From: Candidatus Pacearchaeota archaeon | GTDB taxonomy: Archaea; Nanobdellota; Nanobdellia; Pacearchaeales; GW2011-AR1 | Reading direction: 5' to 3' | DNA length: 52,934 nt | Assembly: GCA_017609795.1 (NCBI GenBank) | Contig: JAFCDH010000001.1 | Span: forward strand, 1-52,934 | Shown here: positions 12,081 through 35,982 of the stretch, piece by piece | How positions within the stretch are numbered: position 1 is the stretch's first letter | How the letters are laid out: every line of letters starts with the position of its first letter | Translations under genes and position numbers: made by a program | The notes under the pieces: model-generated | The model's database searches: none | Seen by the model: the letters and a program-made list of their open reading frames with translations, nothing else | Told to the model about the DNA's origin: nothing

Positions 12081-14948
12081 TTAATTTGGAGTTAATCCTC
12101 CTTCTAATGCTTTTATTCTTGCTGTTAAATCATCAATATCTTGTTTTTGTTCCTGAATTACTGATGTTAAAATAGTTAAATATTCATTTCTTGAAAGTTC
12201 AACCGTTTCTAATTCATCTGTAATTTCAGTATAATCAATTACATTTACACATAAAGTATCATTTACTAATTTTCCATTAACCATTTCTGTTAAAACTTCA
12301 CACTCTTTTTTATAATGAATAATTGTTTTATTTGTTGTTAGTTGTGGAAATATTTTTACTAAATCTTCTGCAATTATTCCAATTTCATTAGTTCTACTTT
12401 CATCTATTCTATCATATATTCTTGGTTCTATATCATAAAATCCTTTAGTATCATCAGAAGTAATATCCCTAATATTTTCTTTATATCTTTCTGATGATGT
12501 TTCATAAACTAATCTCCCATCTGATTGTATTCTTAAATTTCTTCCAACTGAGGTATTAGCATCATTATAAACTAAGGGCATATAAACCCCACCATCTTCA
12601 TCTATCTTAACACCTAATGTTGCTGCCTGACCACCATTAGGAACAGTATAAAATTCCATTTTCATTCCAAAACCTTTATCAAAATCAGAAATATAATAAT
12701 GGTTTTCAGTAGCCATTACTTTAATTGCAGAATAAGTAGCATAACCTATCCCAGAAGTCCACGCTCTAAAATAAAATCTTCCAACATTATCTCCTGATAA
12801 TAAATGAGAAGGAGATTCAAGTGTTCCTCTGCTTCTTTTTGTGTTCCATATTGGTGAAGCAGTAGTGTCCCGAGCATCAGTTATAATATATTGATGAGCA
12901 TTTAAAGAGTGAGTGATATGGTCAGCATCTGTTGTTAAAACCATGCCTCCTGTTCTTGTAATATCCCCTGTTCCTGCAATATCTCCAATTACTGCAACAG
13001 GCTTATTTATAATAATAGAAGGACTTCCTGTATCTATTGTGGTAATTCCAGCATCACTTACTGAAAAACTTATAAATTTTGTAGCATCATAACCAATTTT
13101 AAATTGTGGTTCTGTTGTAGAAAGAATTGTTGTAGCTCCTGCTCTTATATTTCTTGTTACATTTAAATTAGTAAAATTCCCCCAATCAACATTAGTAATA
13201 TTATTTCCACCTAAATCTAAATTTCCATTCCAAGTTAATTCTCCAATATATGCAGTTCCTGTTACAGTCAAGGTTGTAAAATTCCCATAAGTTGAATTGA
13301 TATTTGATGCAAAAACACCTCCACCAATATTTGCATCATCACCAACAATTAAATTATTTTGAACATCTAAATTTGCCTTAGCATTGCTTCCTCCTTGTTC
13401 ATTTCTTATTTTAAGTGTTCTTGCATTATCAGTATAAAATTCAATTTCTGCATCACCACTTACAAAGAACCATTCAGGAGAGTTTATCCATTCGATTACA
13501 GTATCTCCTCCATCAATAGCAATTCTATTGTCATTATCACCAAAAGCCCCAATTTTTGCTGTACCATCACCTATTAAAATATTAGATGATACTCCCATAT
13601 CAACATCATTATCAAACACAACACCATGCCCTTCTTCATTCTCTGCTATGTGGTCTACATAAAGATTTGTTGCATTTGTTAAATTATATACTCCAAGATT
13701 TAAATTTCCTGCCATATTTCTTGAACCATCAGCTAATAAATATTGTGGATGGTCATCATCTGAAAGTCCTGCTAAATCTCCATGGTCTGTAACAATATTA
13801 AAACTTTCTTCACTTATTCCAGGTCTTACATCTTGCCAAACAGCATTACTAAAATCAGTATCTCCTTGTTGATAAACTACTGTTGTTAATTTTGGAGTTT
13901 GTGCTAAGCCTTCAGGAATAGGAGATAATGCTCCTGCTTCTGCTTGTGCTTTTGTATTGTAATAAGTAGTTGGATAAACCCAACCTAATTGATGATGTGC
14001 ATAAATAAAATATGCTTTTGTCCATTTATTTGCAGGAATATTATCTAAATCATTTCCATCATCATATTGTATTGTATCTATTTCTGCATTAGAATCATTA
14101 GTCCAATCTCCTCCTGAATGAAATAATCTTATTAAAGGGAGTGTTCTTGAATTTATTGCTGTTGGATTTCTTTCTTCAATTCCATCTTTAATTAATTTTC
14201 CAGCATCCATTGAAACATCAAGGGAGTTTGTAGCATCTGTATCTTCACTAACACTCATTCCATTTATTATTCTATTTGGAAAAGCAATTCTTAATCCTCT
14301 ACGAGTATCTGACATTGAAGCATCAATTAAACTCATTTCCCTATATCCTGCAATATTTCCATCCCAATTTGAAAATTTTGCAATTAATATTTCATCACCT
14401 GAACTTGAACTTGTTTGCAATTCTAAAGTAGAAGTTCCTGTATATTTGAGATAATTAACTTGGTCACTTACTAAAGTTCCTGAACCCGCATCTGTTTTAA
14501 CAAAATCTTCAATTGAAAAATCATAAACTTCTCCTGCTGTCCATTCAACATCTAATCCTCCTGTAAGTGAAACTGTAATTGTTTCGGATACTCCACGATT
14601 AATTATATGATTAAAAGTATCTTTGATTGAATGTCCATCATGGTCTATTATGTGAGTTGAGTTTAATTGAACTCCTTTAACCTGAAAACCTGTTGCATTA
14701 ATATAATTTGCTGAAAAATTGTAAATTCCAATACCTATATCTTGATTTGAGTTAGAACCATTTATTGAAAGATAATTAGAAAACATCGAAGTAATACCAT
14801 CTAAAATGTATGTAACACTTTGATTACCCCAATAAATTCCTGTTGTTTTATTTAATTGGTCTGTTGGATGAAATTGTATATTTGAAGAAGCTAAAGTTAA
14901 TGGAATTATCAATAAGATTAATGCAAACATTAGATATTTTTTTATCAT
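12081..14948 (-). CDS. fibre/spike protein with C-terminal peptidase-S74 intramolecular chaperone domain
   Basis: Signal peptide; G/N/T-rich beta-helix-like repeats; TSSERYKENIRDI...IGIIAEDL then coiled coil at the C-terminus. Confidence 0.8.
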   Translation of the reverse strand: MIKKYLMFALILLIIPLTLASSNIQFHPTDQLNKTTGIYWGNQSVTYILDGITSMFSNYLSINGSNSNQDIGIGIYNFSANYINATGFQVKGVQLNSTHIIDHDGHSIKDTFNHIINRGVSETITVSLTGGLDVEWTAGEVYDFSIEDFVKTDAGSGTLVSDQVNYLKYTGTSTLELQTSSSSGDEILIAKFSNWDGNIAGYREMSLIDASMSDTRRGLRIAFPNRIINGMSVSEDTDATNSLDVSMDAGKLIKDGIEERNPTAINSRTLPLIRLFHSGGDWTNDSNAEIDTIQYDDGNDLDNIPANKWTKAYFIYAHHQLGWVYPTTYYNTKAQAEAGALSPIPEGLAQTPKLTTVVYQQGDTDFSNAVWQDVRPGISEESFNIVTDHGDLAGLSDDDHPQYLLADGSRNMAGNLNLGVYNLTNATNLYVDHIAENEEGHGVVFDNDVDMGVSSNILIGDGTAKIGAFGDNDNRIAIDGGDTVIEWINSPEWFFVSGDAEIEFYTDNARTLKIRNEQGGSNAKANLDVQNNLIVGDDANIGGGVFASNINSTYGNFTTLTVTGTAYIGELTWNGNLDLGGNNITNVDWGNFTNLNVTRNIRAGATTILSTTEPQFKIGYDATKFISFSVSDAGITTIDTGSPSIIINKPVAVIGDIAGTGDITRTGGMVLTTDADHITHSLNAHQYIITDARDTTASPIWNTKRSRGTLESPSHLLSGDNVGRFYFRAWTSGIGYATYSAIKVMATENHYYISDFDKGFGMKMEFYTVPNGGQAATLGVKIDEDGGVYMPLVYNDANTSVGRNLRIQSDGRLVYETSSERYKENIRDITSDDTKGFYDIEPRIYDRIDESRTNEIGIIAEDLVKIFPQLTTNKTIIHYKKECEVLTEMVNGKLVNDTLCVNVIDYTEITDELETVELSRNEYLTILTSVIQEQKQDIDDLTARIKALEGGLTPN

Positions 14949-15211
14949 TTTCTTTTTCTTTTGTGTTTTTTTACATTGAATTTCTTTCCTTTCTTGCTTC
15001 TCTTTGTGTATTTCCTAACTTTAACTCTGCCAAAGATATGCCCCGCAAAACGGGGGTGGGTTTTTTTTACTCTCCTTACGCGAGTTAAATCTCCGGGAGC
15101 CCTTGTTAATTTCCGTCCTGTAAGTTGTCCTGTCTTAGAATCTCTTGTTGCAATAGTTCTTCCTGTTTTTTCAATTTTGATAAATTCCTTAGTAACTCTT
15201 TTTACCATCAT
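14945..15211 (-). CDS. very basic small protein (possible nucleic-acid binding)
   Basis: Track ORF; K/R-rich, ends KKHKRKRK; overlaps neighbours by 4 nt. Confidence 0.55.
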   Translation of the reverse strand: MMVKRVTKEFIKIEKTGRTIATRDSKTGQLTGRKLTRAPGDLTRVRRVKKTHPRFAGHIFGRVKVRKYTKRSKKGKKFNVKKHKRKRK

Positions 15212-15432
15212 GATTTTATGACAAGCATTCTTTCCTGCTTATCCATTAAATTTAATTTAGATTTTACATCATCTTGAATAAGTAAGATTCCTTTATATAT
15301 ATTTGGTTTGAAAAAAGTTCTTTCTATACCAACCTTAACTATCCCTTCATCTCCAAATTTTTGATAAATTCCTTGCGGTAGCTTAATTGATGCTTTGTCT
15401 TTAAATATTCTTACTACTATTCTAATTCTCAT
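15208..15432 (-). CDS. hypothetical protein (weak AbrB/SpoVT-like feel)
   Basis: Track ORF; IKLPQGIYQKFG segment. Confidence 0.45.
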   Translation of the reverse strand: MRIRIVVRIFKDKASIKLPQGIYQKFGDEGIVKVGIERTFFKPNIYKGILLIQDDVKSKLNLMDKQERMLVIKS

Positions 15433-16112
15433 CTTAATTTAATTTTTTGAAGTTCTTTACATTCTCCAAGATGTTTAGTATATTCATCATAATTTCTAAA
15501 TGTCTCTCTACAATATTCACATTTTCTTTTTCTTCTTCTCCAAAGTATTATAAAGAAGAAAACCCCGATTAATAAAAGTATTGGTGGAGCAATTTTTTTC
15601 ATAATTTCTTCAATTTCAACTTCTTCATCTTCTATAATTTCTTCTGGTTCTGTTGGTTCTCCACCTATTGTTGTTCTTGTTACACTCCCGCAGCAAAGTT
15701 TATAAGAATAATGGCTATAGTTTCCTAAATGGCTATTATTTAATTTATTTAATGAAGCAATATGATAATCTCTTGGACAAACACCTGAAGTAATAGTGCA
15801 TTGAACACTTGCACAAAGGTTGTAATCATAAAACTTTTCCACACTCGCCACATGACTATCATTAATTTTATATTGGCTTAAAACAAAAGATTGATTACCT
15901 GTGCAATTTCCTGTGGTTAAATTTATTGTAATAATTTTTGGATAACAAATTGATTGATTAAAGTAACCTGGCTGGGCAATATGAGAATTTTCGGTTTGGT
16001 ACAAACTAAACATTTCAGTTTCTCCTGCTTCACATCCGTTTTCTCTTGTTATAGCACTTATCGTCGGTATTAATACCAAACTCATTAAAAAAATTATATA
16101 TAACATTTTCAT
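15429..16112 (-). CDS. type I membrane protein with triple NxSH repeats and cytoplasmic C2HC zinc finger
   Basis: Signal peptide; ENSHIA / NDSHVA / NNSHLG repeats; TM; tail CEYCRETFRNYDEYTKHLGEC. Confidence 0.65.
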   Translation of the reverse strand: MKMLYIIFLMSLVLIPTISAITRENGCEAGETEMFSLYQTENSHIAQPGYFNQSICYPKIITINLTTGNCTGNQSFVLSQYKINDSHVASVEKFYDYNLCASVQCTITSGVCPRDYHIASLNKLNNSHLGNYSHYSYKLCCGSVTRTTIGGEPTEPEEIIEDEEVEIEEIMKKIAPPILLLIGVFFFIILWRRRKRKCEYCRETFRNYDEYTKHLGECKELQKIKLR

Positions 16113-16366
16113 TATCTTAAAACTCTCCTTTTTATTGGTTTCTTCTTCATCATAATTTTATTTAAAAGAACTTCTCTATATCTAAAATAAACTACTACAA
16201 TAATTATTAAGATTAATAAACCAGCAATTAAAGGATGGTTAGGACTTATTTTTTCACCTATTGAAATTATAAAATCTTTTCCTTGAGTTGTTATTTCTTC
16301 AAATGTCAAAGGATATATTGAATAGATGATTGCTGCTATCACCATCAAAAGTATTAAATCTATCAT
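16112..16366 (-). CDS. two-TM small membrane protein
   Basis: Track ORF, hydrophobic. Confidence 0.55.
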   Translation of the reverse strand: MIDLILLMVIAAIIYSIYPLTFEEITTQGKDFIISIGEKISPNHPLIAGLLILIIIVVVYFRYREVLLNKIMMKKKPIKRRVLR

Positions 16367-19300
16367 TTTCTTTTTTTAAAAGCCCTCCTTAACCATGATT
16401 TAGCTTTTCTTCTTGCTTCATAATATTGAGGAAATTTATATATTTTTCCTTTTGCTTTTTGTTTTTCTAAAACAATTACACCACTAACTCCTGAGATAGT
16501 TATTATAAAAATCCAAAAAAGTACTGGTGATTGGTTGGTTATACATCTTGATTTTATTTCAGGAGTATCTTCTACATCTAACCAATCTCCTATAGGATTT
16601 CCTGCAAAACAAGAAAAAATCAAATCATCCAGATTTAAGCCCCCACAATCACTTGGACAGCTATAAAAACTTTCTCCTGATTCACAAAGCCCATTTCCAC
16701 ATATCGCTTTTGCTTCTATTATTATTTCTGGTTCTTCTTCTTCTTCAGGTGGTGTTGGTTCTCCTCCTCCACCTAAACTACTCGGCGTGGTATAAGTTAT
16801 TGTAAATTCTTTTGTTGTTTTATTTTCATTACTTGCTAAGTCACTTGAATAAATAGTTAAATTATATGTTCCATAATTTCCTTGAACAGCAGCTAACCCA
16901 CGAACATTACAAGTATAAGAAATATTTTCATTAGTTCCATCAAGGCTTCCAGTTGCATTATAAATTGAATACTTACAAGAAAGAGTATTTGTGTCAGAGG
17001 TAGTTGAATTAAAATAAATCATTTTAGAATCTACAGTTGTACTTATTGAAGAAAGGTTTATTTCAGGAAAAATAGTATCCACACCAAAAGTAAAATTGTT
17101 TAAAGCCCAATCTCCATTATTACTCGTATCATTGCACCAAACATTCCAGACAAATTCCGTGTCTGTTAAAGTAAAATTTGTATAATTTTGAACTCCTGAA
17201 TTAGGTTTTTTCCATGTAAAATTCTTATGCCAAGTCCCTGTAGCATTATGATAAAGTCTACAAGTATCTAAACCATTAACATCTGTTGAAGTAAAATTAA
17301 AATGAGAATTAACCCCAGTATTTAACCAAAGCCCATCTGTAGGATAATCTAAAACAGTTGATGGTGCAGTAAAAGAAAGCCCAAAAGTAACAGAAGAAGA
17401 ATTTATATTATTAAGAGTATCATTTACATAAAAAGTCAAAGTATATGCACCCTCACCTATTCCATCGATTTTAGTAACATTAAAAGTCATATTTGCACAA
17501 TCTGGAACAGTAGTATTGCTTGTAATTATATCTGTTGAATTAAAAATTCTATACCAGCAAGATTGAACACCAAGAGTTTCATCTGAAACAGTAAAATTTA
17601 AAGGAAGACTCTGATTTGTAGCATAATTTTGTGGTAGGGGTCTATATAAATCTAATAAAGGATTAGCATTATCTAAGGTAATTCTTCTTGTCCTAGTTTC
17701 ATTATAATTAGAAGCACCATCCCAAACACTAATATTATAATTATAAAACCCATCATTAAGCCCTGTCCAATTTACAACCCTTTGAGCAGTTGAATAAGTT
17801 GTTATATTTACTTGAGTTCCATTTCTATGATAAAGTCTAAAAGTAATATTTTTTTCATTTGTCTCTGTAACATTTGCATATACATAAATCCAGGTTCTTG
17901 TAAAATTTGTTTCATTAAGTTCAGTGCCAGTTCCATAGGAAATTAAAGGGTTGGTTGTGTCAATCGTGAAGGTTGTGGATTGAGTAGAGTTTGTATTTCC
18001 TACTGTATCATTACAATAAGCAGTTATTGTATAATCTCCGTCGGCAATAGAAGTGTTGGAGTAGTTCCCACCAGTTGAACTTGAATTTATAGATAAAGAA
18101 TAATTATTTAATCCAGAATTTAAACTCACAACACAGGCATTAAAATTTGTGCTTGTTAAATTTATGTGGATGAAGTTTTGTGAATAATAATTTGTATTTA
18201 CTGGATTTAAGATTCTATAATCTGGTGGAATTGTATCAATAAAAAAAGTAACATTGGAAGAATTTGTATTTCCAGCAGTATCATTTGTCCAAACCCTTAC
18301 AATATGCTTTCCATCTGTCCAAGTTATATCAGTTATATTTACTCCACAAGTTATTGAGGTGTTTAAAGTAAAAGTATCATTAGAATACCAACAAGAAGCT
18401 ATGTTTGTGTCGGCAAAGGTATATTCAACATCTAAAGTATTATCAGATGAACTTGTTCCATTTGTTGGACTTGTAATATTTATATAAGGGTGAACATTAT
18501 CTAAACTAAATACATCATTAAAATTATTTTCATTAACAGTAACATCATAAAGATGAGAAATTGTAGGATAACTAATATTTTGAGCATAAATTGTATAATT
18601 ACTATAATAAGTTGTAACTCCTCCAGTTCGATAATAATCAAATATTTCAGTTTGTGGAGTATACCCAGTATCATCTGTTGTAAAATTAAACTGAGGAGTG
18701 CCTGTAATATTATAAGCAGTTATATTTATTCCCTCAAGTGCAGAACCTGTATTTGAATCATTAACATAAGTTCTATAATACCATTTTCTATAAAGAGAAC
18801 AACCAGAACTAACATCTTCTTTTACTTTATCATAAGTTACATTTAAAAAAACATTATTAATTGATGCTGTTTCAAAGGGTGTAATTGTAACATCTACTGT
18901 TGTACTACTAATTTTTCCATCTTTTAAAAGATTATTGCTTGCACCATCTTGAAAATATACTCCATTTAGGTTATCATAAAAACTAAAATTAGTTAAATTA
19001 TTATCTAAAACATACCAAAAACCAATTGCCCATCTTGTTTCGCTTATTGTTATATCTGACCATTTATTTTTAGAACTTAAATAATCATCCCCCCACATAT
19101 TAATTCCTTCTGAAACCCCATTAGTTCCTGTAATAGTTATATTTTCTAAAACATTATTAACTGAATCTACAATATCAATACCATGGTCATAAACCCCATA
19201 ATTTCCTGTATTTATATTTATATCCTTTATTTCGATATTATCTGAACCACTAAAAATAGTAATTGCAGTAACACCAAAATTATTAATATTTCCGTTTTTA

Positions 19301-26683: not shown

Positions 26684-26684
26684 C

Positions 26685-27924: not shown

Positions 27925-27933
27925 ATTGATTTA

Positions 27934-28122: not shown

Positions 28123-28130
28123 TTTTCCTC

Positions 28131-28832: not shown

Positions 28833-28854
28833 TTTTTTGTTTTCATTTATTTAA

Positions 28855-29970: not shown

Positions 29971-30189
29971 TTAGTATTTATCTACAGCATATCCTATAGC
30001 AATTCCAATCCCAATTATAATTAGGGGGATACTCCAATCTCCAGCAAAAGTTGTCCAAGCATCAGGTATAACTTGAATTATCCAGTTATAAACCTTATCT
30101 CCCCAAACAACAAATGCTCCCATGATTCCACCTAAAACTGTTCCATTTTTTGCTGTATCTTTTATGCTACTTTTCCAAAAACTTCCCAT
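29971..30189 (-). CDS. small membrane protein
   Basis: Track ORF. Confidence 0.5.
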   Translation of the reverse strand: MGSFWKSSIKDTAKNGTVLGGIMGAFVVWGDKVYNWIIQVIPDAWTTFAGDWSIPLIIIGIGIAIGYAVDKY

Positions 30190-30221
30190 TTTATTTTTTA
30201 TATTTTATTTATTTAATGATT

Positions 30222-30440
30222 TTATTTTTTACCCCACCTTCTAAATATAAATATAACTAATAATACCACCCAAGCCCAACCAGGGATTTTAGCTATCACA
30301 CTTGTTATTTTTAATATTGATGAGATTCCTCCACCACCTAAAAAAATTATTAAAACTACTCCTAAAAATAAAGCTAAAACTAATCCTGCACTTACATTAA
30401 ATCCTGCTTTTGGTTGTGCTTGTGCTTTTTTATTTATCAT
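30222..30440 (-). CDS. small membrane protein
   Basis: Track ORF, 2 TM. Confidence 0.5.
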   Translation of the reverse strand: MINKKAQAQPKAGFNVSAGLVLALFLGVVLIIFLGGGGISSILKITSVIAKIPGWAWVVLLVIFIFRRWGKK

Positions 30441-32227
30441 CTTTTTAATACCAATATTAATAATAATGCTCCTCCAATTATAACAATAATTAAACCATCA
30501 GTTCCATCTTTAATTCCATCACCTGTAACATCAAAAAATGCTGCCCATTCAAAGATTTCTAAACCTACTCCTTCTTTAATACAATATCCTGCTTTTGATA
30601 AATCTTTATCTCCAAAACTTTCAAAAATATCATTGATTCCTAATCCAAGAGCCCCTCCTGCTAAAGCACATAAAGGAAATAATATTGGTGCAGCAGGTAG
30701 TAAAACAAGTGATGCTGCTCCACAAGCAGCAATCCCTCCTATTGCTCCAGCAGATGTAAAAAAGATAGCAGACCTATCTATTATACTTTCTGCTTCCTCA
30801 TCAGTCAAAGAACCACTATCCACTAAAAATTGTAAAGATTGACATTCACTTTCTTCTTCACATTGAATTGTTTTTGTACAAGCAGAAGCTGCCAAATCTT
30901 CAGCAGTCATTTTTTTAATTTTTGAAGCAGAAATTCCTTTTTGATTTCCTCTTGAAGTATCGCTTGGTGAACAATATCCTTCCAAACACTGAAGTCCAGA
31001 TTGGCAATCAGTAGTTCTTTCACATGTCCATCCATTTCTACATTTATCACATTCAGAACCACCACAATCAGTATCAGTTTCTTCTCCATCCCTAATTCCA
31101 TTAGTACAACTTCCTACACAATCTATCCTAGGGGTAAAAGCAACATTAAATCTGTCTGAAGAGGTTACTCCAGTAGCTAATCCTGTATTAAAACAATTAA
31201 CAAAAGCAACTACTAATAAATCAAAAGTTCCTATTGGTTCTATTCCTTTTCTACAAACTTTTGGAGTAATTATTGTAAATGTTTCAGTTATTTCTTCCCC
31301 TGCATTTAATTCTATTAATTTAGTATCAACATTTTTTTCATTTGGTTCACAATTTATAGCATCTTGAATAACTACAAAACCCCAACTAGTAATATCTTCA
31401 TCTTTATATAATCCAACTTCAACTTTCATTGAACCTTTCTCACCATTATTTTTTATCTTTACATTTATATTTACATTTTGTTCAGAACTAAAAACAATAG
31501 GAGTTGCAGAAATTATATCTACTTGAAAATCAGCATCTCCAGTAACACCATCCCCATTTCCATCATCATCATCTAAGACACACTCAACTGCATCATCTTC
31601 ATCCTCATAACATTGTCTTGAATCATGACCTGGATGATACCACATTTTTCTGTCAGGGTCATTACACCAATAATTACTTCCATAATCTACATCTTGCCAA
31701 AATTCCCATCCAGTTTCTTCACACCTATAAACATCTGTTTCCCAATCTGGCTCTTCATAATAACAAGAACCATAAGCAATATTACAAATATCTCCGTATG
31801 GGTCATCACAATCAGAATTAGAATCACAAGAAGGATAAGGGCAACAATAAAATTCTATCCAAGTATTTTCATCAAATTTTAATCCATCCCATTCTGTAAA
31901 ATCATCTTCATATTCTCTATAAAAAAAATCATCATAATAAGTATTAATCAAGGCAGAATCTGAACACCCCCCATCACGATAATCATAACTATCCCATTGT
32001 TCTCCAATAGAGTGAGATATTATCTTATTAGGATAAACAGAACAATCTCTTGCTTGCCCTACTGAGGTAAATAATAAATTACTAATTTTATATTTTAAAT
32101 TACTTAAAAATAAATCAAAAGCACTTATTTTTGTTTCTTTTTCAGTTTGAGCATTTACAAATACTAACATAAGCATAACTAAGATTATTCCTACGCTTAT
32201 TAAGCATATCTGTTTTTTATATTTCAT
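30437..32227 (-). CDS. secreted Cys-rich acidic protein with CARDB-like module and C-terminal membrane region
   Basis: Track ORF extends to 32278 through a repeat array; ATG at 32227 gives signal peptide MKYKKQICLISVGIILVMLMLVFVNA; NVNINVKIKNNGEKGSMKVEVGLY; CTNGIRDGEETDTDCGGSECDKC. Confidence 0.7.
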   Translation of the reverse strand: MKYKKQICLISVGIILVMLMLVFVNAQTEKETKISAFDLFLSNLKYKISNLLFTSVGQARDCSVYPNKIISHSIGEQWDSYDYRDGGCSDSALINTYYDDFFYREYEDDFTEWDGLKFDENTWIEFYCCPYPSCDSNSDCDDPYGDICNIAYGSCYYEEPDWETDVYRCEETGWEFWQDVDYGSNYWCNDPDRKMWYHPGHDSRQCYEDEDDAVECVLDDDDGNGDGVTGDADFQVDIISATPIVFSSEQNVNINVKIKNNGEKGSMKVEVGLYKDEDITSWGFVVIQDAINCEPNEKNVDTKLIELNAGEEITETFTIITPKVCRKGIEPIGTFDLLVVAFVNCFNTGLATGVTSSDRFNVAFTPRIDCVGSCTNGIRDGEETDTDCGGSECDKCRNGWTCERTTDCQSGLQCLEGYCSPSDTSRGNQKGISASKIKKMTAEDLAASACTKTIQCEEESECQSLQFLVDSGSLTDEEAESIIDRSAIFFTSAGAIGGIAACGAASLVLLPAAPILFPLCALAGGALGLGINDIFESFGDKDLSKAGYCIKEGVGLEIFEWAAFFDVTGDGIKDGTDGLIIVIIGGALLLILVLKR

Positions 32228-32237
32228 TCTAACCTTC

Positions 32238-32335
32238 AAAAGACAAGCTAACATTAAAGGCAAGCCTAAATAAGGCAAGCTATCTAAAAGACAAGCTAAA
32301 CCTAAAAGGCAAAGCTACCTAAAAAGATTGGCTCG
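32238..32335 (-). repeat. six imperfect direct repeats (unit AAARRCAAGCTA on + strand, 14-18 nt period), intergenic
   Basis: Units at 32238, 32256, 32272, 32286, 32304, 32321, between stop 32338 and ATG 32227. Confidence 0.7.
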
Positions 32336-32337: not shown

Positions 32338-32793
32338 TTATATTAACTTAATTTTAAGTTGTTTTACTAAGCCGAAACTAAGAGCAACTGCTGCATAATA
32401 AACTGCTAATCCTACTAAAGTTCCCATACCTGGAAGCTTAAATCCTACTAATAATAAGTAGAAGGGTACAGTTCCATATAACAATGTTAATGCTAATCTA
32501 GACCACTCTGTTTTTCCACTAGGAAGCATTTTTACTTTATCTTTTATAAATGCTCCAACATAAATTATTAATGTTGCACTAATAAACAAGTAAACTATAG
32601 ATTCAAAAGTTACTAAATTCTGTAAAATACTAACAACCTTGTTTCCAATAGTTGTTGTTATACCTGTTGTTGCTGTAATTCCAAATATCTGCTTTACTGA
32701 TACATTAGCAAGGCTAAGTATCCAATTCAAGATTAACACAGTTAAGGTTATCCATGCTCCAGTTTTTACGGCTTTCATTATATCGCCTTTCAT
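32338..32793 (-). CDS. polytopic membrane protein
   Basis: Track ORF, 4 TM; promoter-like box upstream. Confidence 0.6.
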   Translation of the reverse strand: MKGDIMKAVKTGAWITLTVLILNWILSLANVSVKQIFGITATTGITTTIGNKVVSILQNLVTFESIVYLFISATLIIYVGAFIKDKVKMLPSGKTEWSRLALTLLYGTVPFYLLLVGFKLPGMGTLVGLAVYYAAVALSFGLVKQLKIKLI

Positions 32794-32872: not shown

Positions 32873-33691
32873 CTATTTCTTAAATCCTGATAAGATATTT
32901 TCAATTGCCCTTCCAATCCCTGAAAAGATATTTTTGATTATATCAAAAATTTCTCCGATAAATGGAATCTTTGTTACTGCTTTCTCTTCATATTTCACTA
33001 AAGGTCCTGAAGTTTTAACATCAAAAGTCACTGATGTTGAATTTCCATTCACTGCAGTTCTATCTGCTGCCGAACAACTTAAAGTATATGTTCCAGTAAT
33101 TGCTGTCTCATCAAAAAAGGCGTCATCTGCTGATGTACTAACACTATACACAGTTCCTCGTGGGTCTGTAATATTACAAACCTCAGTTCCATCTAAACCA
33201 GAGGTTGCATCACTCATAGCTGTTGAATACTTTAAGATTCTATGTAAGGTAATTTCACTATAGTCTACAGAGATATCTATTGTTGGCGCACGGTTATCAA
33301 TCCCAACTTTTGTAACAGTAAATGTTTTATTGTAAGTAGAACCATCTTCTCCAATTGACGCATTTCGCATATAACAAGTTATATTATAAAGCAATCCATC
33401 TGCAATAGCACTTATAGTAGCTGAACCAGTGAAAAGTCTTTGATAAGCAGTAGTATTTTCTATCTCTAAAAGCCATGTAGTAGCAGATGTAATACCATAA
33501 TAACAAGTAACATTTGACATATTATGAGAATTATGTCCATCATAATTAACAGTCACTGTAATTGTTGAAGTATAATTTACACCATCTATTGGAGATGACA
33601 TATTATTTTCTGCCGCAGCTGCACTAACTAAAACCAAAGTCATTACTGTAAACAATATCGCAATAGGCAATATCAATTTTTGTTTTTTCAT
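32873..33691 (-). CDS. secreted Ig-like repeat glycoprotein
   Basis: Signal peptide; DNRAPTIDIS module boundary like those in the 1269-aa protein; NxS/T sequons. Confidence 0.65.
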   Translation of the reverse strand: MKKQKLILPIAILFTVMTLVLVSAAAAENNMSSPIDGVNYTSTITVTVNYDGHNSHNMSNVTCYYGITSATTWLLEIENTTAYQRLFTGSATISAIADGLLYNITCYMRNASIGEDGSTYNKTFTVTKVGIDNRAPTIDISVDYSEITLHRILKYSTAMSDATSGLDGTEVCNITDPRGTVYSVSTSADDAFFDETAITGTYTLSCSAADRTAVNGNSTSVTFDVKTSGPLVKYEEKAVTKIPFIGEIFDIIKNIFSGIGRAIENILSGFKK

Positions 33692-33721: not shown

Positions 33722-33910
33722 TTATAATTGACGACCTGAAATTACATCAAAGTAAGCTATAATAAGCAAAATTATTCCAAAAGGGAGTGGATATTTAGAT
33801 ATTATGTCAGTTATAGCATCAATTCCAATAACCAATCCTAATCCAGCTATTCCTATTATTACTCCTAAAACTTTTTTCAAGGTTCGTGCAGTTCCTTTTT
33901 TTGGTAACAT
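33722..33910 (-). CDS. small membrane protein
   Basis: Track ORF, 2 TM. Confidence 0.5.
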   Translation of the reverse strand: MLPKKGTARTLKKVLGVIIGIAGLGLVIGIDAITDIISKYPLPFGIILLIIAYFDVISGRQL

Positions 33911-33911
33911 T

Positions 33912-34082
33912 TTATTTTTTTGGCTTCTTCCTATTATATTTTTCTACCCATTTATGATTTTTTTTCCTATATCCTGTTACTTCCACAACCTTATTATTAA
34001 CAAAGGCTAGTCTCTGTCTTTTTCCTGGGGATATTTTTTTATATCTATATCTTATTTTTTTCCTTGGATATGGAAGAGGCAT
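33912..34082 (-). CDS. very basic 56-aa ORF
   Basis: Hand-translated MPLPYPRKKIRYRYKKISPGKRQRLAFVNNKVVEVTGYRKKNHKWVEKYNRKKPKK; purine-rich leader. Confidence 0.35.
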   Translation of the reverse strand: MPLPYPRKKIRYRYKKISPGKRQRLAFVNNKVVEVTGYRKKNHKWVEKYNRKKPKK

Positions 34083-34138: not shown

Positions 34139-34921
34139 CTAAATTCTTTGTTTATTTAATTGAATATTTAATCTTGGAATTATCAAAATAGCAAGGGGGA
34201 TAATTATTAATGGGGCAACCATTAATGATACAATTCCAGTTAATGCCCCGAATAATCCAATTCCTGCGGCATTAGCAATTATATGAAAGAAAACTACTTG
34301 TTTTGCCTCACCAAACCACATTGCAAATCCTAAAGTAAAAACCATCATAAGGAATACAACTAATAATGCAATATTATTTGTAATACCTTTAGCAGTAACA
34401 TGATACATTAAAAATCCAAAAGCTAAAGGAAGGATTAAAACAAACCATGTTTTAACACTTTTTAATCCTGATTTTGAAATATTAATATTAAATGCAGAAG
34501 CTAAAAAATCCATTGAAATAATAAAAAACATAGTCTCAGCAAAAGGAACAAATAAAACAAAAGTAAGAGTATTTAAAATCACAGACTCTGCCAATGCAGG
34601 AGTTGTGGTTCCTATTAATTGAATCAACTGTCCAATATCAATTTTAGCAAAAAGAGGTGCTAAAACAGAAGCAAAAACAACAAAAACAACATAAATTAGA
34701 ATTCCCTTAACAAAACCAATCCCCCATTTTCCATCTTTACTTAATGGAATTGTTTTAACTTTATCCCAACCATAAATAATCATACTAACAATAGAAAAAA
34801 CTGCTAAGTAAATTACTCCAAGAATTGTATTTACATTAACTGCAATAAACCCAAACCAGAGGGCTACAAACCAAAACATTGTTAATATGAATGGTATTTT
34901 TTCTTTTTCTAATCTTGCCAT
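34139..34921 (-). CDS. polytopic membrane protein, divergent CPBP (CAAX/Abi-type) intramembrane protease-like
   Basis: PFAETMFF (degenerate EExxxR), FLMYH (FxxxH), FFHIIAN (HxxxN), in that order on separate helices. Confidence 0.45.
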   Translation of the reverse strand: MARLEKEKIPFILTMFWFVALWFGFIAVNVNTILGVIYLAVFSIVSMIIYGWDKVKTIPLSKDGKWGIGFVKGILIYVVFVVFASVLAPLFAKIDIGQLIQLIGTTTPALAESVILNTLTFVLFVPFAETMFFIISMDFLASAFNINISKSGLKSVKTWFVLILPLAFGFLMYHVTAKGITNNIALLVVFLMMVFTLGFAMWFGEAKQVVFFHIIANAAGIGLFGALTGIVSLMVAPLIIIPLAILIIPRLNIQLNKQRI

Positions 34922-34981: not shown

Positions 34982-35009
34982 CTCGCTACTGATTTAAAGA
35001 GTGAGCGAG
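34982..35009 (-). terminator. hairpin + T-run after the 315-aa gene
   Basis: CTCGCT(34982-34987)/AGCGAG(35004-35009); on the - strand it is followed by TTATTTTTTCTCTTTT. Confidence 0.45.
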
Positions 35010-35034
35010 TCTAACTCCATATATTTAGCAAATC

Positions 35035-35982
35035 TTAATCGCTGAAGTGAGTTTTACTTGTTTTTTGCTGAGATAGGTCAGTATCTGCGCCACCAAGCAA
35101 GTTTTCTTGTTCGTCTTCTGCTCCAAACTTAATTCCGTCTATAGTAGAATAACCTGGTTCAAGATATAATGCAGTGTCTATAAGTTGTCCCTGTATCCAA
35201 GATAAATCTCCTGGTGCTGTACTTCCAATTTTAACAACTGCATAAGTAATAATTGTACCATCTGTTGCGTAAGCATCACTGTCTCTTTGAAAACAATATA
35301 GTGTATGTTCTACTAAACTTGGGTCTTTTCTTCCTGGACAAGGTATTTCTGTATATTTTCCACCTGCACTGTCTGCTTTAGTGATTGTTATATCTTCTAT
35401 AACAGTCCTAGTCCCATTAGTTTCATAAACAATTATTGGTTTTCTTACTCCACTGTTACTAACATTAACTTTCCACTTTGCTCTAAATTCTTCTGTTGCT
35501 CCTGCTGTACCTGAAATGTTTTGATTAAGGTCAACTGGGTCATCCATTGCAGATAAAGTTAATCCTCCTCTCAAAACTAATTTTGTTGTTACTGTATGTT
35601 TTGGTTTGTTTCCACAATTAGCTGAAAACTTCTTAGCCAAATATCCTGAACTTTCTCCTAACTTATTATAAGCCCAAATATCATAATCTGTATTTACTCT
35701 TGCTGTTACTGTATCTTTTCCATCATCTCCTGCTTCACCTGAATCGAAAAATGTCCCATCTCCATTGAACATAATATAAGAAGCATTAACATTAGTATCT
35801 GTTGTTGATAATTCATCTTTGAATTTCAATATCAAATCACATTGTAAATCACTTGGAACAAGTTCATCATCAACACCATCATCAGCTGGTCCACCAATAT
35901 AGCCTGCACTGTAAGCGAAATAAATAGCAATAAGAACTACTGCAATCCATATAACCGGATTTGCTTTTCCTAATTTATTCAT
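35035..35982 (-). CDS. candidate major structural protein with pilin-like (class III-like) N-terminus
   Basis: MNKLGKA-NPVIWIAVVLIAIYFAYSA resembles archaeal prepilin N-termini; appears monocistronic, with its own upstream region and a terminator hairpin. Confidence 0.6.
   Translation of the reverse strand: MNKLGKANPVIWIAVVLIAIYFAYSAGYIGGPADDGVDDELVPSDLQCDLILKFKDELSTTDTNVNASYIMFNGDGTFFDSGEAGDDGKDTVTARVNTDYDIWAYNKLGESSGYLAKKFSANCGNKPKHTVTTKLVLRGGLTLSAMDDPVDLNQNISGTAGATEEFRAKWKVNVSNSGVRKPIIVYETNGTRTVIEDITITKADSAGGKYTEIPCPGRKDPSLVEHTLYCFQRDSDAYATDGTIITYAVVKIGSTAPGDLSWIQGQLIDTALYLEPGYSTIDGIKFGAEDEQENLLGGADTDLSQQKTSKTHFSD

What the first reader, a model, noticed from the sequence alone, without database searches (positions are those of the whole stretch)
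12081..35982. Candidate undescribed system: 24-kb co-directional surface/envelope module with built-in processing enzymes
About 32 genes run on one strand with 0-30-nt gaps or overlaps. The module opens with a pilin-like major protein that has its own terminator. Next come a CPBP-like intramembrane protease and at least 12 small polytopic membrane proteins. The surface proteins follow: Ig-like and CARDB-like glycoproteins, three Cys/Asp-rich ectodomain proteins and a coiled-coil stalk lectin-like protein. There is also an S26B signal peptidase, a 1269-aa beta-helix adhesin, a membrane-tethered zinc finger and two very basic small proteins. The module ends with an S74-chaperoned fibre. Divergently across a 270-nt control region sit an RHH regulator and a HerA/FtsK-type ATPase. 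I cannot match the set to any described archaeal virion architecture, archaellum or pilus operon, or S-layer locus. I see two hypotheses: the morphogenetic module of a novel enveloped archaeal virus, or a host-attachment organelle of an episymbiotic archaeon that travels on a mobile element.
Basis: inference. Interest (0 to 1): 0.75.

Follow-up and report, generated by a model that had tools for sequence, protein, structure and literature searches.

The report
Virion-like envelope module, uncultivated archaeal element
The 24-kb block is real and belongs to a deeply conserved gene module of a roughly 53-kb self-replicating archaeal element, probably of DPANN/Woesearchaeota hosts. It most likely builds a membrane-containing virus particle of a kind not yet described, although no particle has been seen.

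Summary
30 ORFs (not 32) lie on the minus strand at 12081-35982, 98% coding, and 25 have a predicted TM segment.

Confirmed domain calls:
- CPBP/Rce1-like protease
- archaeal-type signal peptidase I
- CARDB, Big_13 and CBM96/DNRLRE domains
- a C-terminal Peptidase_S74 domain
- basic small proteins

Corrections:
- Two ORFs inside the block are homing endonucleases.
- "Pilin-like" means only a tandem Ig-like fold.
- The beta-helix and the RHH regulator were not verified.

The functional unit is larger than the block. The FtsK/HerA ATPase operon (36243-41179) stays next to the major protein gene and its CPBP neighbour in every relative that spans both, down to about 30% identity. Relatives occur only on metagenome contigs. 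The major protein has none in 185,579 GTDB species genomes, and neither it nor the ATPase has any in IMG/VR or GenBank phage records.

The window also carries an orc1/cdc6 gene with an origin-like repeat cluster, Alba, at least five homing-endonuclease-like genes and no cellular housekeeping genes.

The AF2 models of the major protein and of the ATPase each find their best BFVD match in one unnamed accession block (A0A5Q2W...).

Best reading: morphogenetic module of a new membrane-containing archaeal virus (about 0.55). Rivals: a vesicle or conjugation-like DNA-transfer apparatus, or surface-remodelling cargo.

The parts
35035..35982 (-). Major protein (315 aa): N-terminal TM helix, variable acidic linker, invariant P-S-D motif, then two beta-sandwich (Ig-like) domains with an invariant Cys pair. 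It is the first gene after the control region and is followed by a hairpin/T-tract.
   Evidence: 13-16 homologues; invariant P43, S44, C215, C230. (AF2 pLDDT 73, pTM 0.67). (best PDB matches are sortase pilins, TM 0.29; no double jelly-roll). (BFVD A0A5Q2WAX2, TM 0.63, E 1.8e-12). (terminator-like site 34984-34953).
34139..34921 (-). CPBP/Rce1-like polytopic intramembrane glutamic protease (260 aa, about 8 TM). It lies immediately downstream of the major gene in every related locus. Inferred to mature the major protein.
   Evidence: 8 TM. (invariant E129-T130, F170xxxH174, H213xxxN217). (PF02517 in 3 of 10 members, best 7.7e-5). (adjacency kept in all 16 loci that reach this position).
33722..34082 (-). 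56-aa very basic protein (pI 11.0; 33912-34082) and 62-aa 2-TM protein (33722-33910).
   Evidence: The 56-aa protein is conserved in L002 (74%) and in L008/L040 (58%).
32873..33691 (-). 272-aa signal-peptide glycoprotein (10 sequons) with a beta-rich ectodomain. It has its own consensus promoter motif. Conserved in distant relatives.
   Evidence: (26-50% identity in L001, L002, L008, L014, L020). (motif 33698-33715).
32338..32793 (-). 151-aa 4-5-TM membrane protein; a core member.
   Evidence: (present in 9 loci at 30-88% identity). (promoter motif 32802-32819, 1 mismatch).
30437..32278 (-). 613-aa Cys-rich (32 Cys) ectodomain protein with a CARDB domain and C-terminal TM segments; a core member.
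   Evidence: CARDB, 25.5 bits against a cut-off of 22.7...
29971..30440 (-). Two 72-aa small membrane proteins. The 2-TM one (30222-30440) is conserved even in the most distant relatives.
   Evidence: (43% identity in L014 and L020). In L040 the 75-aa ORF adjacent to the 72-aa counterpart carries PF18893 DUF5652.
29157..29966 (-). Homing-endonuclease-like gene (2 HTH + DUF559/Vsr-like nuclease) inserted in the block; a selfish insert, not a structural part.
   Evidence: A related endonuclease lies at the same place in L002.
26189..29166 (-). Run of eight genes: 103 aa (3 TM), 233 aa (TM anchor + Ig/CARDB-like ectodomain), then 62, 83, 157, 74, 95 and 164 aa small membrane proteins.
   Evidence: Collinear homologues in L001 (27-84%) and L041. 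No family hits.
24882..26192 (-). 436-aa TM-anchored protein. Only the N-terminal about 150 aa are conserved and the C-terminal part is variable, the pattern of a receptor-binding protein.
   Evidence: homologues cover 21-45% of the query at 39-73% identity..
23301..24869 (-). 522-aa CBM96/DNRLRE carbohydrate-binding head, a long 14-aa-periodic coiled coil and a C-terminal TM anchor.
   Evidence: CBM96, 4e-17. (DNRLRE, 1.2e-20). (42/84-nt repeats 23420-24128). (phrog_37549 'virion structural protein', 7.7e-7). Homologues in L014.
21955..23304 (-). 449-aa Cys/Asp-rich (39 Cys) ectodomain protein with 3 N-terminal TM segments.
   Evidence: (weak acidic double-disulfide repeat).
21167..21952 (-). 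HNH homing endonuclease (261 aa) inserted in the block.
   Evidence: HNH, 22 bits against a cut-off of 21.4. Paralogues in L001, L002, L037 and L038 at different positions.
20174..21183 (-). 173-aa Cys-rich type I membrane protein (20662-21183) and 163-aa archaeal-type signal peptidase I (S26B; 20174-20665).
   Evidence: Peptidase_S24 clan, 1e-6. (TIGR02228, 4.2e-11, below the cut-off). Motifs GDSMEP, GHRI and KGDNN read. The peptidase-then-adhesin order is kept in L037.
16363..20172 (-). 1269-aa heavily sequon-rich (60) adhesin with Big_13 Ig-like repeats and a C-terminal TM anchor.
   Evidence: Partial homologues in L037-L039. The beta-helix claim was not verified.
14945..16366 (-). 84-aa 2-TM protein; 227-aa type I membrane protein with a cytoplasmic Cys/His tail; 74-aa (pI 10.1) and 88-aa (pI 12.0) basic proteins.
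   Evidence: No family hits.
12081..14948 (-). 955-aa fibre-like protein with an N-terminal signal/anchor and a C-terminal Peptidase_S74 intramolecular-chaperone domain (motif SSERYKENI).
   Evidence: (C-terminus 27-32% identical to phage minor tail and tail fibre proteins; residues 214-429 match uncultured jumbo phage records, E 1e-10).
35983..36242 (.). 260-nt divergent control region between the major gene and the ATPase operon.
   Evidence: sequence. (D9: upstream element shared with 28824-28858 and 46196-46230).
36243..36410 (+). 55-aa small protein, possibly ribbon-helix-helix (unverified).
   Evidence: Conserved in L001 and L008/L040 (38-44%). No Pfam hit.
36471..38261 (+). FtsK/HerA-superfamily ATPase (likely start M16, 581 aa): a beta-rich N-terminal domain fused to an approximately 430-aa core. 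The two parts are separate ORFs in many relatives.
   Evidence: Pox_A32 24.1 bits against a cut-off of 22.8; FtsK, Zot weak. (phrog_2666, 7e-13). (348 clusters at 50% identity). (PDB: HerA 1.7e-6, STIV B204 1.2e-4, FtsK).. (split ORFs). (AF2 pLDDT 80). (BFVD best A0A5Q2W8D8).
38291..41179 (+). ATPase operon partners: 223-aa type I membrane protein, 56 aa, 182-aa soluble coiled-coil protein, 205-aa acidic + HTH protein, 103-aa Alba-like protein, 183-aa 2-TM protein with a C-terminal globular domain.
   Evidence: (AlbA, E 0.0026, full length). (223, 182 and 183 aa conserved in L014/15; 182 and 183 aa also in L017 and L020). (promoter motif 40287-40304).
46754..48078 (-). orc1/cdc6-family initiator gene (46754-47749) and the adjacent origin-like region (47750-48078), with six exact ATTTAAGTGTT repeats, three per strand, around an AT-rich core.
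   Evidence: TIGR02928, 1.3e-25. (all six exact copies in the window lie within 266 bp).

Best explanation
The block, together with the divergent ATPase operon (12081-41179), is the late or morphogenetic module of an uncultivated, self-replicating archaeal dsDNA element of at least 53 kb. The element is most likely a membrane-containing (enveloped or pleomorphic) virus of DPANN/Woesearchaeota-like hosts.

Proposed mechanism (all steps inferred except where marked):
1. Late genes fire from a shared TATA-like promoter, TTAATTAAATAAATGAAA. The motif and its position are shown in the sequence; its function is inferred.
2. The abundant 315-aa protein is inserted into the host membrane by its N-terminal helix. 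The adjacent CPBP-type intramembrane protease trims it near the invariant P-S-D junction. This frees or matures a tandem Ig-like ectodomain that coats the particle.
3. About a dozen small membrane proteins and several type I Cys-rich or glycosylated proteins populate the membrane patch that becomes the particle envelope. The element's own signal peptidase I removes Sec-type signal peptides, notably from the 1269-aa adhesin encoded next to it.
4. Basic 56/88-aa proteins and Alba-like proteins condense the genome. The FtsK/HerA ATPase translocates it into the particle.
5. The CBM96 coiled-coil protein, the Ig-repeat adhesin, the 436-aa protein with a variable C-terminus and the S74 self-cleaving trimeric fibre mediate attachment. 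This half of the module evolves fast.
For: 1. Deep, specific linkage. The major protein and the CPBP protease are adjacent in all 16 loci that reach that point. Every longer relative also has the ATPase (with the 182/183-aa partners, and the 223-aa partner in most) next to them. This holds down to 28-32% identity and even when the ATPase operon is inverted to become co-directional.
2. The ATPase belongs to the FtsK/HerA DNA-translocase superfamily. Pox_A32 is the most frequent Pfam hit in the family (5 of 20). PDB profile hits are HerA, the STIV B204 packaging NTPase and FtsK. One homologue carries an intein.
3. Mobile, virus-like replicon:
   - orc1/cdc6 plus a repeat-flanked AT-rich origin-like region;
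   - Alba, a PD-(D/E)XK nuclease and methyltransferases;
   - at least five homing-endonuclease-like genes;
   - about 35 small Zn-finger-rich ORFs;
   - no tRNA, rRNA or other Rfam RNA and no housekeeping gene among the ORFs scanned.
4. The major protein is absent from 185,579 GTDB species genomes. Relatives lie on metagenome contigs of similar size: 52.9, 53.4 and 54.2 kb.
5. Phage-type parts: an S74 chaperone fibre whose C-terminus and mid-part match phage tail proteins, and a CBM96 head matching a PHROG 'virion structural protein'.
6. The best BFVD matches of both AF2 models fall in one unnamed UniProt virus accession block. The major protein matches A0A5Q2WAX2 (309 aa, TM 0.63, E 1.8e-12). 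The ATPase matches A0A5Q2W8D8 (429 aa, the size of the family's core ATPase, E 1.3e-10).
7. 25 of 30 products are membrane or secreted proteins and several are very basic. This fits an envelope plus a nucleoprotein core rather than a cytoplasmic icosahedral shell.
Against: - No recognised capsid fold was found (double or single jelly-roll, HK97, or the spindle or filamentous archaeal MCPs). The major protein is a generic tandem Ig-like fold. PHROGs gave nothing for the core proteins.
- No relative is present in IMG/VR or in GenBank phage or archaeal-virus records. No pipeline has therefore called these elements viral.
- The ATPase is no closer to A32 than to HerA or to conjugative ATPases (AAA_10 in 3 of 20; a 'conjugal transfer protein' is among the BFVD hits).
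- Two relatives lie on 89- and 129-kb scaffolds that also carry radical SAM and transketolase-like genes. Integration in, or membership of, a larger genome is therefore possible.
- Ig-like adhesins, S74 domains, signal peptidases and CPBP proteases also occur in cellular surface loci.
- The contig has no terminal repeats and is cut inside a methyltransferase gene.
- The protease-substrate relation, the coat role and the packaging step are all untested.
Confidence: 0.55

Rival explanations
1. A non-viral DNA-transfer apparatus of a plasmid-like element. This would be either a conjugation or Ced/Ted-like membrane channel, or a plasmid-encoded vesicle system such as pR1SE of Halorubrum. The FtsK/HerA ATPase would pump DNA across or into membrane. 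The small 2-TM proteins would form a conduit or pilus, and the adhesins would hold donor and recipient cells together.
For: - The ATPase family also gives weak AAA_10, TrwB and TrbB-type hits, and a 'conjugal transfer protein' appears among the BFVD matches.
- There are many small hairpin membrane proteins.
- A signal-peptidase-like protease is known from established knowledge to mature the pilin in IncP conjugation (TraF/TrbC).
- The element has its own replicon.
- No capsid fold was detected.
- No relative is present in IMG/VR.
Against: - No hit reached significance for VirB4/CagE, a VirD4-type coupling protein, VirB6/TrbL (only E 0.07 on an 83-aa protein), a relaxase or a partition gene in the ORFs scanned.
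- Only one ATPase is present.
- The most conserved and presumably most expressed product is a 315-aa Ig-like ectodomain protein, not a VirB2-like pilin.
- Basic DNA-condensing proteins sit inside the module.
- The fibre is phage-type, with an S74 domain.
- Many homing endonucleases are present, which is typical of viruses (established knowledge).
- Best structural matches to entries filed as viral.
Confidence: 0.22
2. Surface-remodelling or host-attachment cargo. A mobile element of an episymbiotic DPANN archaeon would supply its carrier cell with a new outer protein layer and adhesins. The ATPase operon would serve only the element's own maintenance.
For: - Nearly all products are membrane or secreted proteins with Ig-like, CARDB, CBM and Cys-rich ectodomains, together with dedicated processing enzymes.
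- The likely host lineage is DPANN: the nearest cellular relatives of the BcrAD gene are Woesearchaeota MAGs (50-55% identity) and these have the best tetranucleotide match.
- The distal half is variable, as expected for host-recognition proteins.
Against: - There is no pilus, archaellum or S-layer machinery. No PilB/FlaI-type ATPase was found (the only module ATPase is FtsK/HerA-type), and no PilC/FlaJ, A24 prepilin peptidase, archaeosortase or PGF-CTERM was identified in the ORFs scanned or read.
- The ATPase operon co-evolves in tight synteny with the major protein, and in L014/L015 the two form one co-directional array. That is hard to explain if the two are functionally unrelated.
- Basic proteins are interleaved with the surface genes.
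- A shared promoter motif links both operons.
Confidence: 0.13
3. An ordinary chromosomal cell-envelope locus of a low-GC archaeon that happens to lie on a 53-kb contig.
For: - Relatives occur on 89- and 129-kb scaffolds with metabolic-type genes.
- The window has a BcrAD/HgdC-type activase pair and a DUF488 gene.
Against: - No homologue of the major protein was found in one genome per 185,579 GTDB species.
- No tRNA, rRNA or housekeeping gene was found in the 53 kb or in eight related loci.
- The window has its own orc1/cdc6 gene with an origin-like region, many homing endonucleases and dozens of tiny ORFan genes.
- The metabolic genes occupy a variable cargo slot that differs between relatives.
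Confidence: 0.05

Closest known systems
Membrane-containing archaeal and bacterial viruses with an FtsK/HerA (A32-like) genome-packaging ATPase (e.g. STIV/Turriviridae, PRD1-like Varidnaviria, sphaerolipoviruses)
   Same: - An FtsK/HerA-superfamily ATPase lies next to the structural genes. Profile hits include STIV B204 (1.2e-4) and Pox_A32. BFVD hits include A32-like ATPases and the Haloarcula virus PH1 ATPase.
- Many small virus-encoded membrane proteins sit in the structural module.
   Different: - No double or single vertical jelly-roll capsid protein was detected. The major protein is a TM-anchored tandem Ig-like protein.
- The ATPase is about 430-580 aa, against about 210 aa for B204, and carries extra domains.
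- Nearly all large products carry signal peptides or anchors, which points to an outer envelope rather than an internal membrane under a protein shell.
Unnamed UniProt/BFVD virus entries A0A5Q2WAX2 (309 aa), A0A5Q2W8D8 (429 aa) and A0A5Q2WAM5 (139 aa)
   Same: - They are the best structural matches of the major protein (TM 0.63/0.64 over 313 columns) and of the ATPase (TMt 0.58 over 428 columns).
- Their lengths match the family's about 310-aa major protein and about 430-aa core ATPase.
   Different: - Only 14-17% sequence identity, and no sequence-level hit.
- The identity of the virus could not be established with the tools. My guess of Nanoarchaeotal virus 1 rests only on the dates of accession and taxid numbers and is unverified.
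Pleolipoviridae and plasmid-vesicle elements (pR1SE)
   Same: The concept is similar: a membrane vesicle studded with element-encoded type I spike proteins and polytopic membrane proteins, plus one P-loop NTPase and no rigid capsid (established knowledge).
   Different: - There is no sequence or PHROG relation.
- The genome is 3-7 times larger than pleolipovirus genomes.
- Far more envelope proteins are encoded.
- The element has its own signal peptidase and CPBP protease, and an S74 fibre.
Sortase-assembled Gram-positive pilins (SpaA, T6, CppA) and archaeal type IV pilins
   Same: - The tandem beta-sandwich fold of the 315-aa protein gives Foldseek E of about 5e-6 to these pilins.
- Some homologues begin M-N-K-K-G-A followed by a hydrophobic helix, which resembles a class III signal peptide.
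   Different: - TM-scores are only 0.25-0.30.
- There is no LPXTG motif, sortase or pilin motif.
- The N-terminal helix is short (residues 9-25) and is separated from the globular part by a variable, low-confidence linker, unlike type IV pilins.
- No PilB/FlaI, PilC/FlaJ or A24 peptidase is present.
Phage tail fibres and tailspikes with a Peptidase_S74 intramolecular chaperone (endosialidase and T5 pb1 type)
   Same: - The C-terminal S74 domain scores above the Pfam cut-off, and the S-E-R-x-K-x-N-I cleavage-site motif is present.
- 27-32% identity to phage minor tail and tail fibre C-termini.
   Different: - It is carried on a protein with an N-terminal signal or anchor.
- The element has no tail, portal, terminase or HK97 genes.

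Membership tests
Varidnaviria-type virion module (double jelly-roll MCP + A32-like ATPase) | FtsK/HerA-superfamily (A32-clade) packaging ATPase | tested here: inconclusive
   Superfamily membership is clear. Pox_A32 scores 24.1 bits, just above the 22.8 cut-off, and hits 5 of 20 family members. HerA, FtsK and AAA_10 hits are comparable. No phylogeny was done.
Varidnaviria-type virion module (double jelly-roll MCP + A32-like ATPase) | Double (or paired single) vertical jelly-roll major capsid protein | tested here: not met
   The AF2 model of the major protein gives no jelly-roll MCP among the PDB or BFVD hits. There is no capsid hit in Pfam or PHROGs for any block protein. Other proteins were not modelled.
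Archaeal type IV pilus / archaellum operon | Pilin with a class III signal peptide and a continuous N-terminal helix packed on the globular domain | tested here: inconclusive
   A K-G-A-like N-terminus occurs in some homologues but not in the window copy (MNKLGKAN). The helix spans residues 9-25 and is followed by a disordered, variable linker.
Archaeal type IV pilus / archaellum operon | PilB/FlaI secretion ATPase, PilC/FlaJ platform protein and A24 prepilin peptidase | tested here: not met
   The only ATPase of the module is FtsK/HerA-type. The polytopic neighbour is CPBP-like, not A24. No such Pfam or NCBIfam hits were found in the ORFs scanned.
CPBP / Rce1-like intramembrane glutamic proteases (PF02517) | Motifs E-E-x-x-x-R, F-x-x-x-H and H-x-x-x-N/D on a polytopic scaffold, with a profile match | tested here: met
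   - Invariant E129 (motif 1 reduced to [A/I]-E-T-x-x-F), F170xxxH174 and H213xxxN217.
- 8 TM segments.
- PF02517 hits in 3 of 10 family members, best 7.7e-5.
- Caveats: the window copy itself gave no hit, and there was no PDB sequence hit.
Signal peptidase I, archaeal/eukaryal type (S26B) | Ser/His catalytic pair in the SM and HR motifs, a GDNN box, and a profile match | tested here: inconclusive
   TIGR02228 gives E 4.2e-11 but 43 bits, below the 51.85 cut-off. The Pfam S24 clan gives 28.9 bits, above 23.3. GDSMEP, GHRI and KGDNN are present in the sequence. The 163-aa protein is probably a member; its activity is untested.
Peptidase_S74 intramolecular chaperone domain | C-terminal domain match plus the Ser cleavage motif | tested here: met
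   PF13884 scores 32.9 bits against a cut-off of 22 at residues 818-870. The motif is TSSERYKENI. tblastn matches phage tail protein C-termini.
Conjugative type IV secretion / Ced-Ted DNA transfer systems | VirB4-family ATPase, VirB6-like channel protein, VirB2-like pilin, and a coupling protein or relaxase | tested here: not met
   No CagE/VirB4, VirD4, VirB6 or relaxase hit at E below 0.01. Only weak AAA_10 and TrwB hits occur in a few ATPase homologues. The small 2-TM proteins could not be tested against VirB2 or CedA1 structures.
Known archaeal virus structural families (fusello-, halspi-, thaspi-, pleolipo-, globulo-, bicauda-viruses etc.) | Sequence or profile similarity of the major structural proteins | tested here: not met
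   PHROGs gave no hit for 30 proteins. tblastn against 50,697 phage and archaeal-virus records gave no hit. A structure-level comparison of the small hydrophobic proteins was not possible.
Autonomous archaeal replicon (orc1/cdc6 + ORB-type origin) | An Orc1/Cdc6 initiator next to an AT-rich region flanked by inverted repeats | tested here: met
   TIGR02928 gives 1.3e-25 (below the family cut-off, so it is a divergent member). Six exact 11-mers, three per strand, lie within 266 bp around an AT-rich core and occur nowhere else in the window. Origin function is untested.

The most novel reading that the evidence does not exclude
These elements would represent a new high-rank lineage of enveloped viruses of DPANN archaea, with relatives at 28-32% identity in groundwater and other environmental metagenomes.
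- The coat would not be built from any known capsid fold. It would be built from a membrane-anchored tandem Ig-like protein that a dedicated virus-encoded CPBP intramembrane protease matures.
- The virus would bring its own signal peptidase for its envelope glycoproteins.
- The lineage would be distantly related to the unnamed A0A5Q2W... virus, possibly Nanoarchaeotal virus 1.
- That would define the first conserved virion module for viruses of DPANN archaea.
Probability: 0.3. Interest if true: 0.85.

Novelty: new variant of a known kind. Interest (0 to 1): 0.62.

Why it matters
DPANN archaea make up a large share of archaeal diversity, yet almost nothing is known about their viruses or mobile elements. 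There is no conserved marker for finding them.

This family supplies a marker set: the major protein, its CPBP neighbour and the ATPase operon. Neither the IMG/VR collection nor the GenBank phage and archaeal-virus records hold any relative of the two marker proteins tested.

If the module builds particles, three things would be new:
- a virion coat principle based on an Ig-like protein released from a membrane anchor by a CPBP protease;
- a rare case of a prokaryotic virus encoding its own signal peptidase;
- a handle for asking how a virus recognises a host that is itself attached to another cell.

If the module instead builds a DNA-transfer or vesicle apparatus, it would be the first such system proposed for DPANN.

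Tried and rejected
- **Double jelly-roll capsid idea.** The A32-type ATPase and the two 8-10-strand domains of the major protein suggested it. I rejected it because Foldseek gave only Ig-like or pilin matches and no MCP.
- **Type IV pilin idea.** Rejected for lack of pilus machinery and because of the short helix plus flexible linker.
- **Spindle-virus MCP or holin among the small 2-TM proteins.** PHROGs and Pfam gave nothing below E 0.01.
- **Sequence searches that found nothing.**
  - GenBank phage records, with the window and with distant family members.
  - IMG/VR, with single proteins and with three alignments.
  - GTDB genomes, with the major-protein alignment.
  - ATPase alignments were too divergent for pattern scans of genomes.
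  - PDB sequence search with the CPBP profile.
- **Identity of A0A5Q2WAX2 and A0A5Q2W8D8.** Two literature searches on the accessions found nothing. The TSPV1 and NAV1 papers are not held. A guessed GenBank accession failed. My first guess of TSPV1 was dropped because its taxid is later than the accession block suggests. NAV1 remains an unverified guess.
- **Literature searches for described DPANN or Woesearchaeota viruses with such a module.** None found.
- **Terminal repeats or circular closure of the contig.** None found. The right end cuts a methyltransferase ORF.
- **Rfam and tRNA scans.** Nothing found.

Full report

Yes, with corrections.
- The window has 28% GC and strong strand-linked purine skew. 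The skew flips at about 12 kb and about 36 kb, where the coding strand changes.
- Between 35982 and 12081 there are 30 minus-strand ORFs of at least 55 aa. They cover 98.5% of the block. 24 of 29 junctions are 30 nt or less, or overlap.
- A hydropathy census gives at least one TM segment in 25 of 30 products. Ten small proteins have at least 2 TM and two more have one.

Domain calls that hold:
- CARDB in the 613-aa, 32-Cys protein.
- CBM96/DNRLRE plus a 14-aa-periodic coiled coil in the 522-aa protein.
- Big_13 repeats and 60 sequons in the 1269-aa protein.
- A C-terminal Peptidase_S74 domain with the SSERYKENI motif in the 955-aa protein. Its C-terminus resembles phage tail proteins.
- Archaeal-type signal peptidase I for the 163-aa protein: TIGR02228 at 4e-11, below the cut-off, with GDSMEP, GHRI and KGDNN motifs.
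- Two very basic small proteins.

Corrections:
- Two members, 29157-29966 (HTH + DUF559) and 21167-21952 (HNH), are homing endonucleases.
- The beta-helix and RHH calls could not be verified.

**2. The major protein and its neighbour**

The first gene encodes a 315-aa protein. It has 13 homologues in 5.8 billion clustered proteins, and 19 further loci in metagenomes.

An AF2 model (pLDDT 73, pTM 0.67) shows an N-terminal helix at residues 9-25, a disordered variable linker, and then two beta-sandwich domains.
- PDB matches are Gram-positive sortase pilins and other tandem-Ig proteins, with TM-scores of only 0.2-0.3. No jelly-roll capsid protein appears.
- Across 16 sequences down to 27% identity, the start of the globular part (P43-S44, usually P-S-D-L) and a Cys pair (C215, C230) are invariant.

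The next gene is a 260-aa, approximately 8-TM protein. It follows the major gene in every locus that reaches that position.
- Its family keeps E129, F170xxxH174 and H213xxxN217.
- Three of ten members hit Pfam Rce1-like/CPBP, best 7.7e-5.
- The strict pairing suggests a protease-substrate relation. The conserved P-S-D junction after the variable linker is the obvious candidate site. This is inference.

**3. The unit is larger than the block, and its core is old**

tblastn and blastp of all window proteins against the related loci show a core kept from 89% down to about 25-35% identity:
- ATPase. In many relatives it is split into an approximately 130-150-aa N-domain ORF and an approximately 430-aa core; in the window they are fused.
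- 223-aa type I membrane protein.
- 182-aa coiled-coil protein.
- An approximately 200-aa protein.
- An approximately 100-aa protein, weakly Alba-like.
- 183-aa 2-TM protein.
- The major protein, then the CPBP protease.
- A small 2-TM protein.
- 272-aa glycoprotein.
- 151-aa 4-5-TM protein.
- The Cys-rich CARDB protein.
- 72-aa 2-TM protein.
- A CBM96 protein further on.

In L014/L015 the ATPase operon lies directly upstream of, and co-directional with, the major gene. The two divergent operons of the window are therefore one functional module.

A promoter-like motif, TTAATTAAATAAATGAAA, ends 6-10 nt before the ATG of genes in both operons (272 aa, 233 aa, 151 aa and the 103-aa Alba-like protein). 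There are 12 matches against 3.8 expected.

The distal half is variable.
- Only the N-terminal about 150 aa of the 436-aa protein are conserved.
- Gene order is shuffled in L037-L039.
- The signal peptidase still precedes the big adhesin in L037.

**4. The ATPase**

- Pfam: Pox_A32 just above its cut-off, with weak FtsK and Zot hits.
- PHROGs: phrog_2666, annotated 'terminase large subunit', at 7e-13.
- A family profile against PDB: HerA (1.7e-6), the STIV B204 packaging NTPase (1.2e-4) and FtsK.
- Over 20 members: Pox_A32 in 5, AAA_10 in 3, FtsK in 3.
- The family has 348 clusters at 50% identity in 1.84 billion representatives. One member carries an intein.
- The AF2 model (pLDDT 80) has its best BFVD match in A0A5Q2W8D8 (429 aa, E 1.3e-10). 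HerA-like phage proteins, a Corticoviridae NTPase, A32-like ATPases and the Haloarcula virus PH1 ATPase follow.

The best BFVD match of the major protein is A0A5Q2WAX2 (309 aa, TM 0.63), from the same accession block, and A0A5Q2WAM5 is also listed. Two independent best hits in one small accession block, with lengths matching this family's core ATPase and major protein, indicate a deposited virus with a distantly homologous pair. I could not name it. Nanoarchaeotal virus 1 is a guess from accession and taxid dates only.

**5. The replicon**

To the right of the ATPase operon lie:
- a BcrAD/HgdC-type activase pair, Alba and an HNH gene;
- an orc1/cdc6-family gene. Immediately upstream of it is a 330-bp region with six exact ATTTAAGTGTT repeats, three per strand, around an AT-rich core. 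These are the only exact copies in the window;
- further right, DUF488, a PD-(D/E)XK nuclease and a DNA methyltransferase ORF that runs off the contig end.

The left 12 kb holds about 35 small, often Cys-rich ORFs, another DUF559/NUMOD3 endonuclease, a NinG/HNH-like protein and a methyltransferase.

No tRNA or Rfam RNA is present, and no housekeeping gene turned up among the ORFs scanned. L002 shares the orc1-HNH-Alba segment but lacks the BcrAD pair. L008/L040 has radical SAM and transketolase-like genes in that slot, which marks it as a variable cargo position.

**6. Distribution and host**

- The major protein has no relative in one genome per 185,579 GTDB species.
- Neither it nor the ATPase has a relative in IMG/VR or in GenBank phage or archaeal-virus records.
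- Relatives lie on metagenome contigs, three of them 52.9-54.2 kb long, and one comes from a Hainich groundwater 0.1-µm sample. Two relatives lie on 89- and 129-kb scaffolds.
- The nearest cellular relatives of the cargo BcrAD gene are mostly Woesearchaeota MAGs (50-55% identity). These also give the best tetranucleotide correlations, r up to 0.68, against 0.8-0.9 for related elements.
- The host is therefore probably a DPANN/Woesearchaeota-like archaeon. This is inferred and not shown.

**7. Interpretation**

Five observations fit the late module of a membrane-containing virus best (about 0.55):
- a DNA-translocase ATPase locked in synteny with a highly conserved, presumably abundant secreted or anchored protein;
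- interleaved basic and Alba-like proteins;
- an envelope-type protein set with its own processing enzymes;
- a phage-type S74 fibre;
- a fast-evolving adhesin half.

Points against: there is no recognisable capsid fold, no pipeline has flagged relatives as viral, the ATPase is not specifically A32-clade, and some relatives are on long scaffolds.

Rivals:
- a conjugation-like or vesicle DNA-transfer apparatus (about 0.22);
- surface-remodelling cargo (about 0.13);
- an ordinary chromosomal locus (about 0.05).

**8. Novelty and score**

The kind of thing, a virus-like morphogenetic module with an FtsK/HerA ATPase and membrane proteins, is known. Three things appear undescribed:
- the composition: a TM-anchored tandem-Ig major protein paired with a CPBP protease, an own signal peptidase, and about a dozen small membrane proteins;
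- the deep conservation of that composition;
- the probable DPANN association.

I rate it a new variant of a known kind, interest 0.62. There is a 0.3 chance that it marks a new high-rank lineage of enveloped DPANN viruses.

Noticed in passing
window 47750-48078: Origin-like region directly upstream of the orc1/cdc6-family gene. It has six exact ATTTAAGTGTT repeats, three per strand, which are the only exact copies in the window. They flank an AT-rich core (47940-47990). A 35-nt inverted repeat lies at 47829-47863 / 48042-48076.
   Followed up: yes
window 28841-28858, 33698-33715, 40287-40304 (exact); 32802-32819 (1 mismatch): Shared 18-nt motif TTAATTAAATAAATGAAA ending 6-10 nt upstream of the start codons of genes in both divergent operons. 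It is probably a TATA-type late promoter on leaderless or near-leaderless transcripts. 12 matches with up to 3 mismatches against 3.8 expected.
   Followed up: partly
window 29157-29966, 21167-21952, 2323-3045, 46390-46752, 5650-6084: At least five homing-endonuclease-like genes (HTH/NUMOD3 + DUF559, HNH, NinG/HNH-like). Two lie inside the structural block. Related endonucleases sit at different positions in relatives (L001, L002, L037, L038), which suggests active mobility.
   Followed up: partly
window 41164-43003; L040 14779-21272: Variable cargo slot to the right of the ATPase operon. The window has a BcrAD/BadFG-type ATPase plus a DUF2229/HGD-D-like partner (a 2-hydroxyacyl-CoA dehydratase activase-like pair). 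L002 lacks them. L008/L040 has radical SAM/SPASM, B12-binding radical SAM and split transketolase-like genes instead.
   Followed up: partly
window 36471-38261 versus L008, L014, L017, L020, L040, L041: The ATPase N-terminal beta-rich domain (about 130-150 aa) is a separate upstream ORF in many relatives. It is fused to the core in the window, L001, L002 and L005. One homologue (P0019, 945 aa) carries an intein with a LAGLIDADG domain.
   Followed up: partly
window 51435-52934 (+ strand): An ORF of at least 499 aa runs off the right end of the window. It has an IYIDPPFF motif typical of N6/N4 DNA methyltransferases. The contig is therefore cut inside a gene and is either incomplete or a circular genome opened there. 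No terminal repeats were found.
   Followed up: partly
window 23420-24128: 42/84-nt periodic repeats encode the 14-residue-periodic coiled-coil stalk of the 522-aa CBM96/DNRLRE protein. Length variation of this stalk between relatives seems likely but was not examined.
   Followed up: no
L006 509-1441 and 1575-1948: One related contig carries two tandem paralogues of the major protein gene.
   Followed up: no
window 45072-45377 and 40310-40621: The element has two Alba-type genes. One is a clear Alba (PF01918, 1.5e-13). The other is a divergent 103-aa Alba-like protein inside the ATPase operon (NCBIfam AlbA, E 0.0026, full length) with the consensus late promoter. It may be a genome-condensing protein of the particle.
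   Followed up: partly
window 6536-6593, 8343-8400; 3535-3587, 4955-5007: Near-identical 53-58-nt direct repeats (91-93% identity) span the ends and starts of small ORFs in the left arm. They suggest duplicated gene-junction cassettes among the early genes.
   Followed up: no
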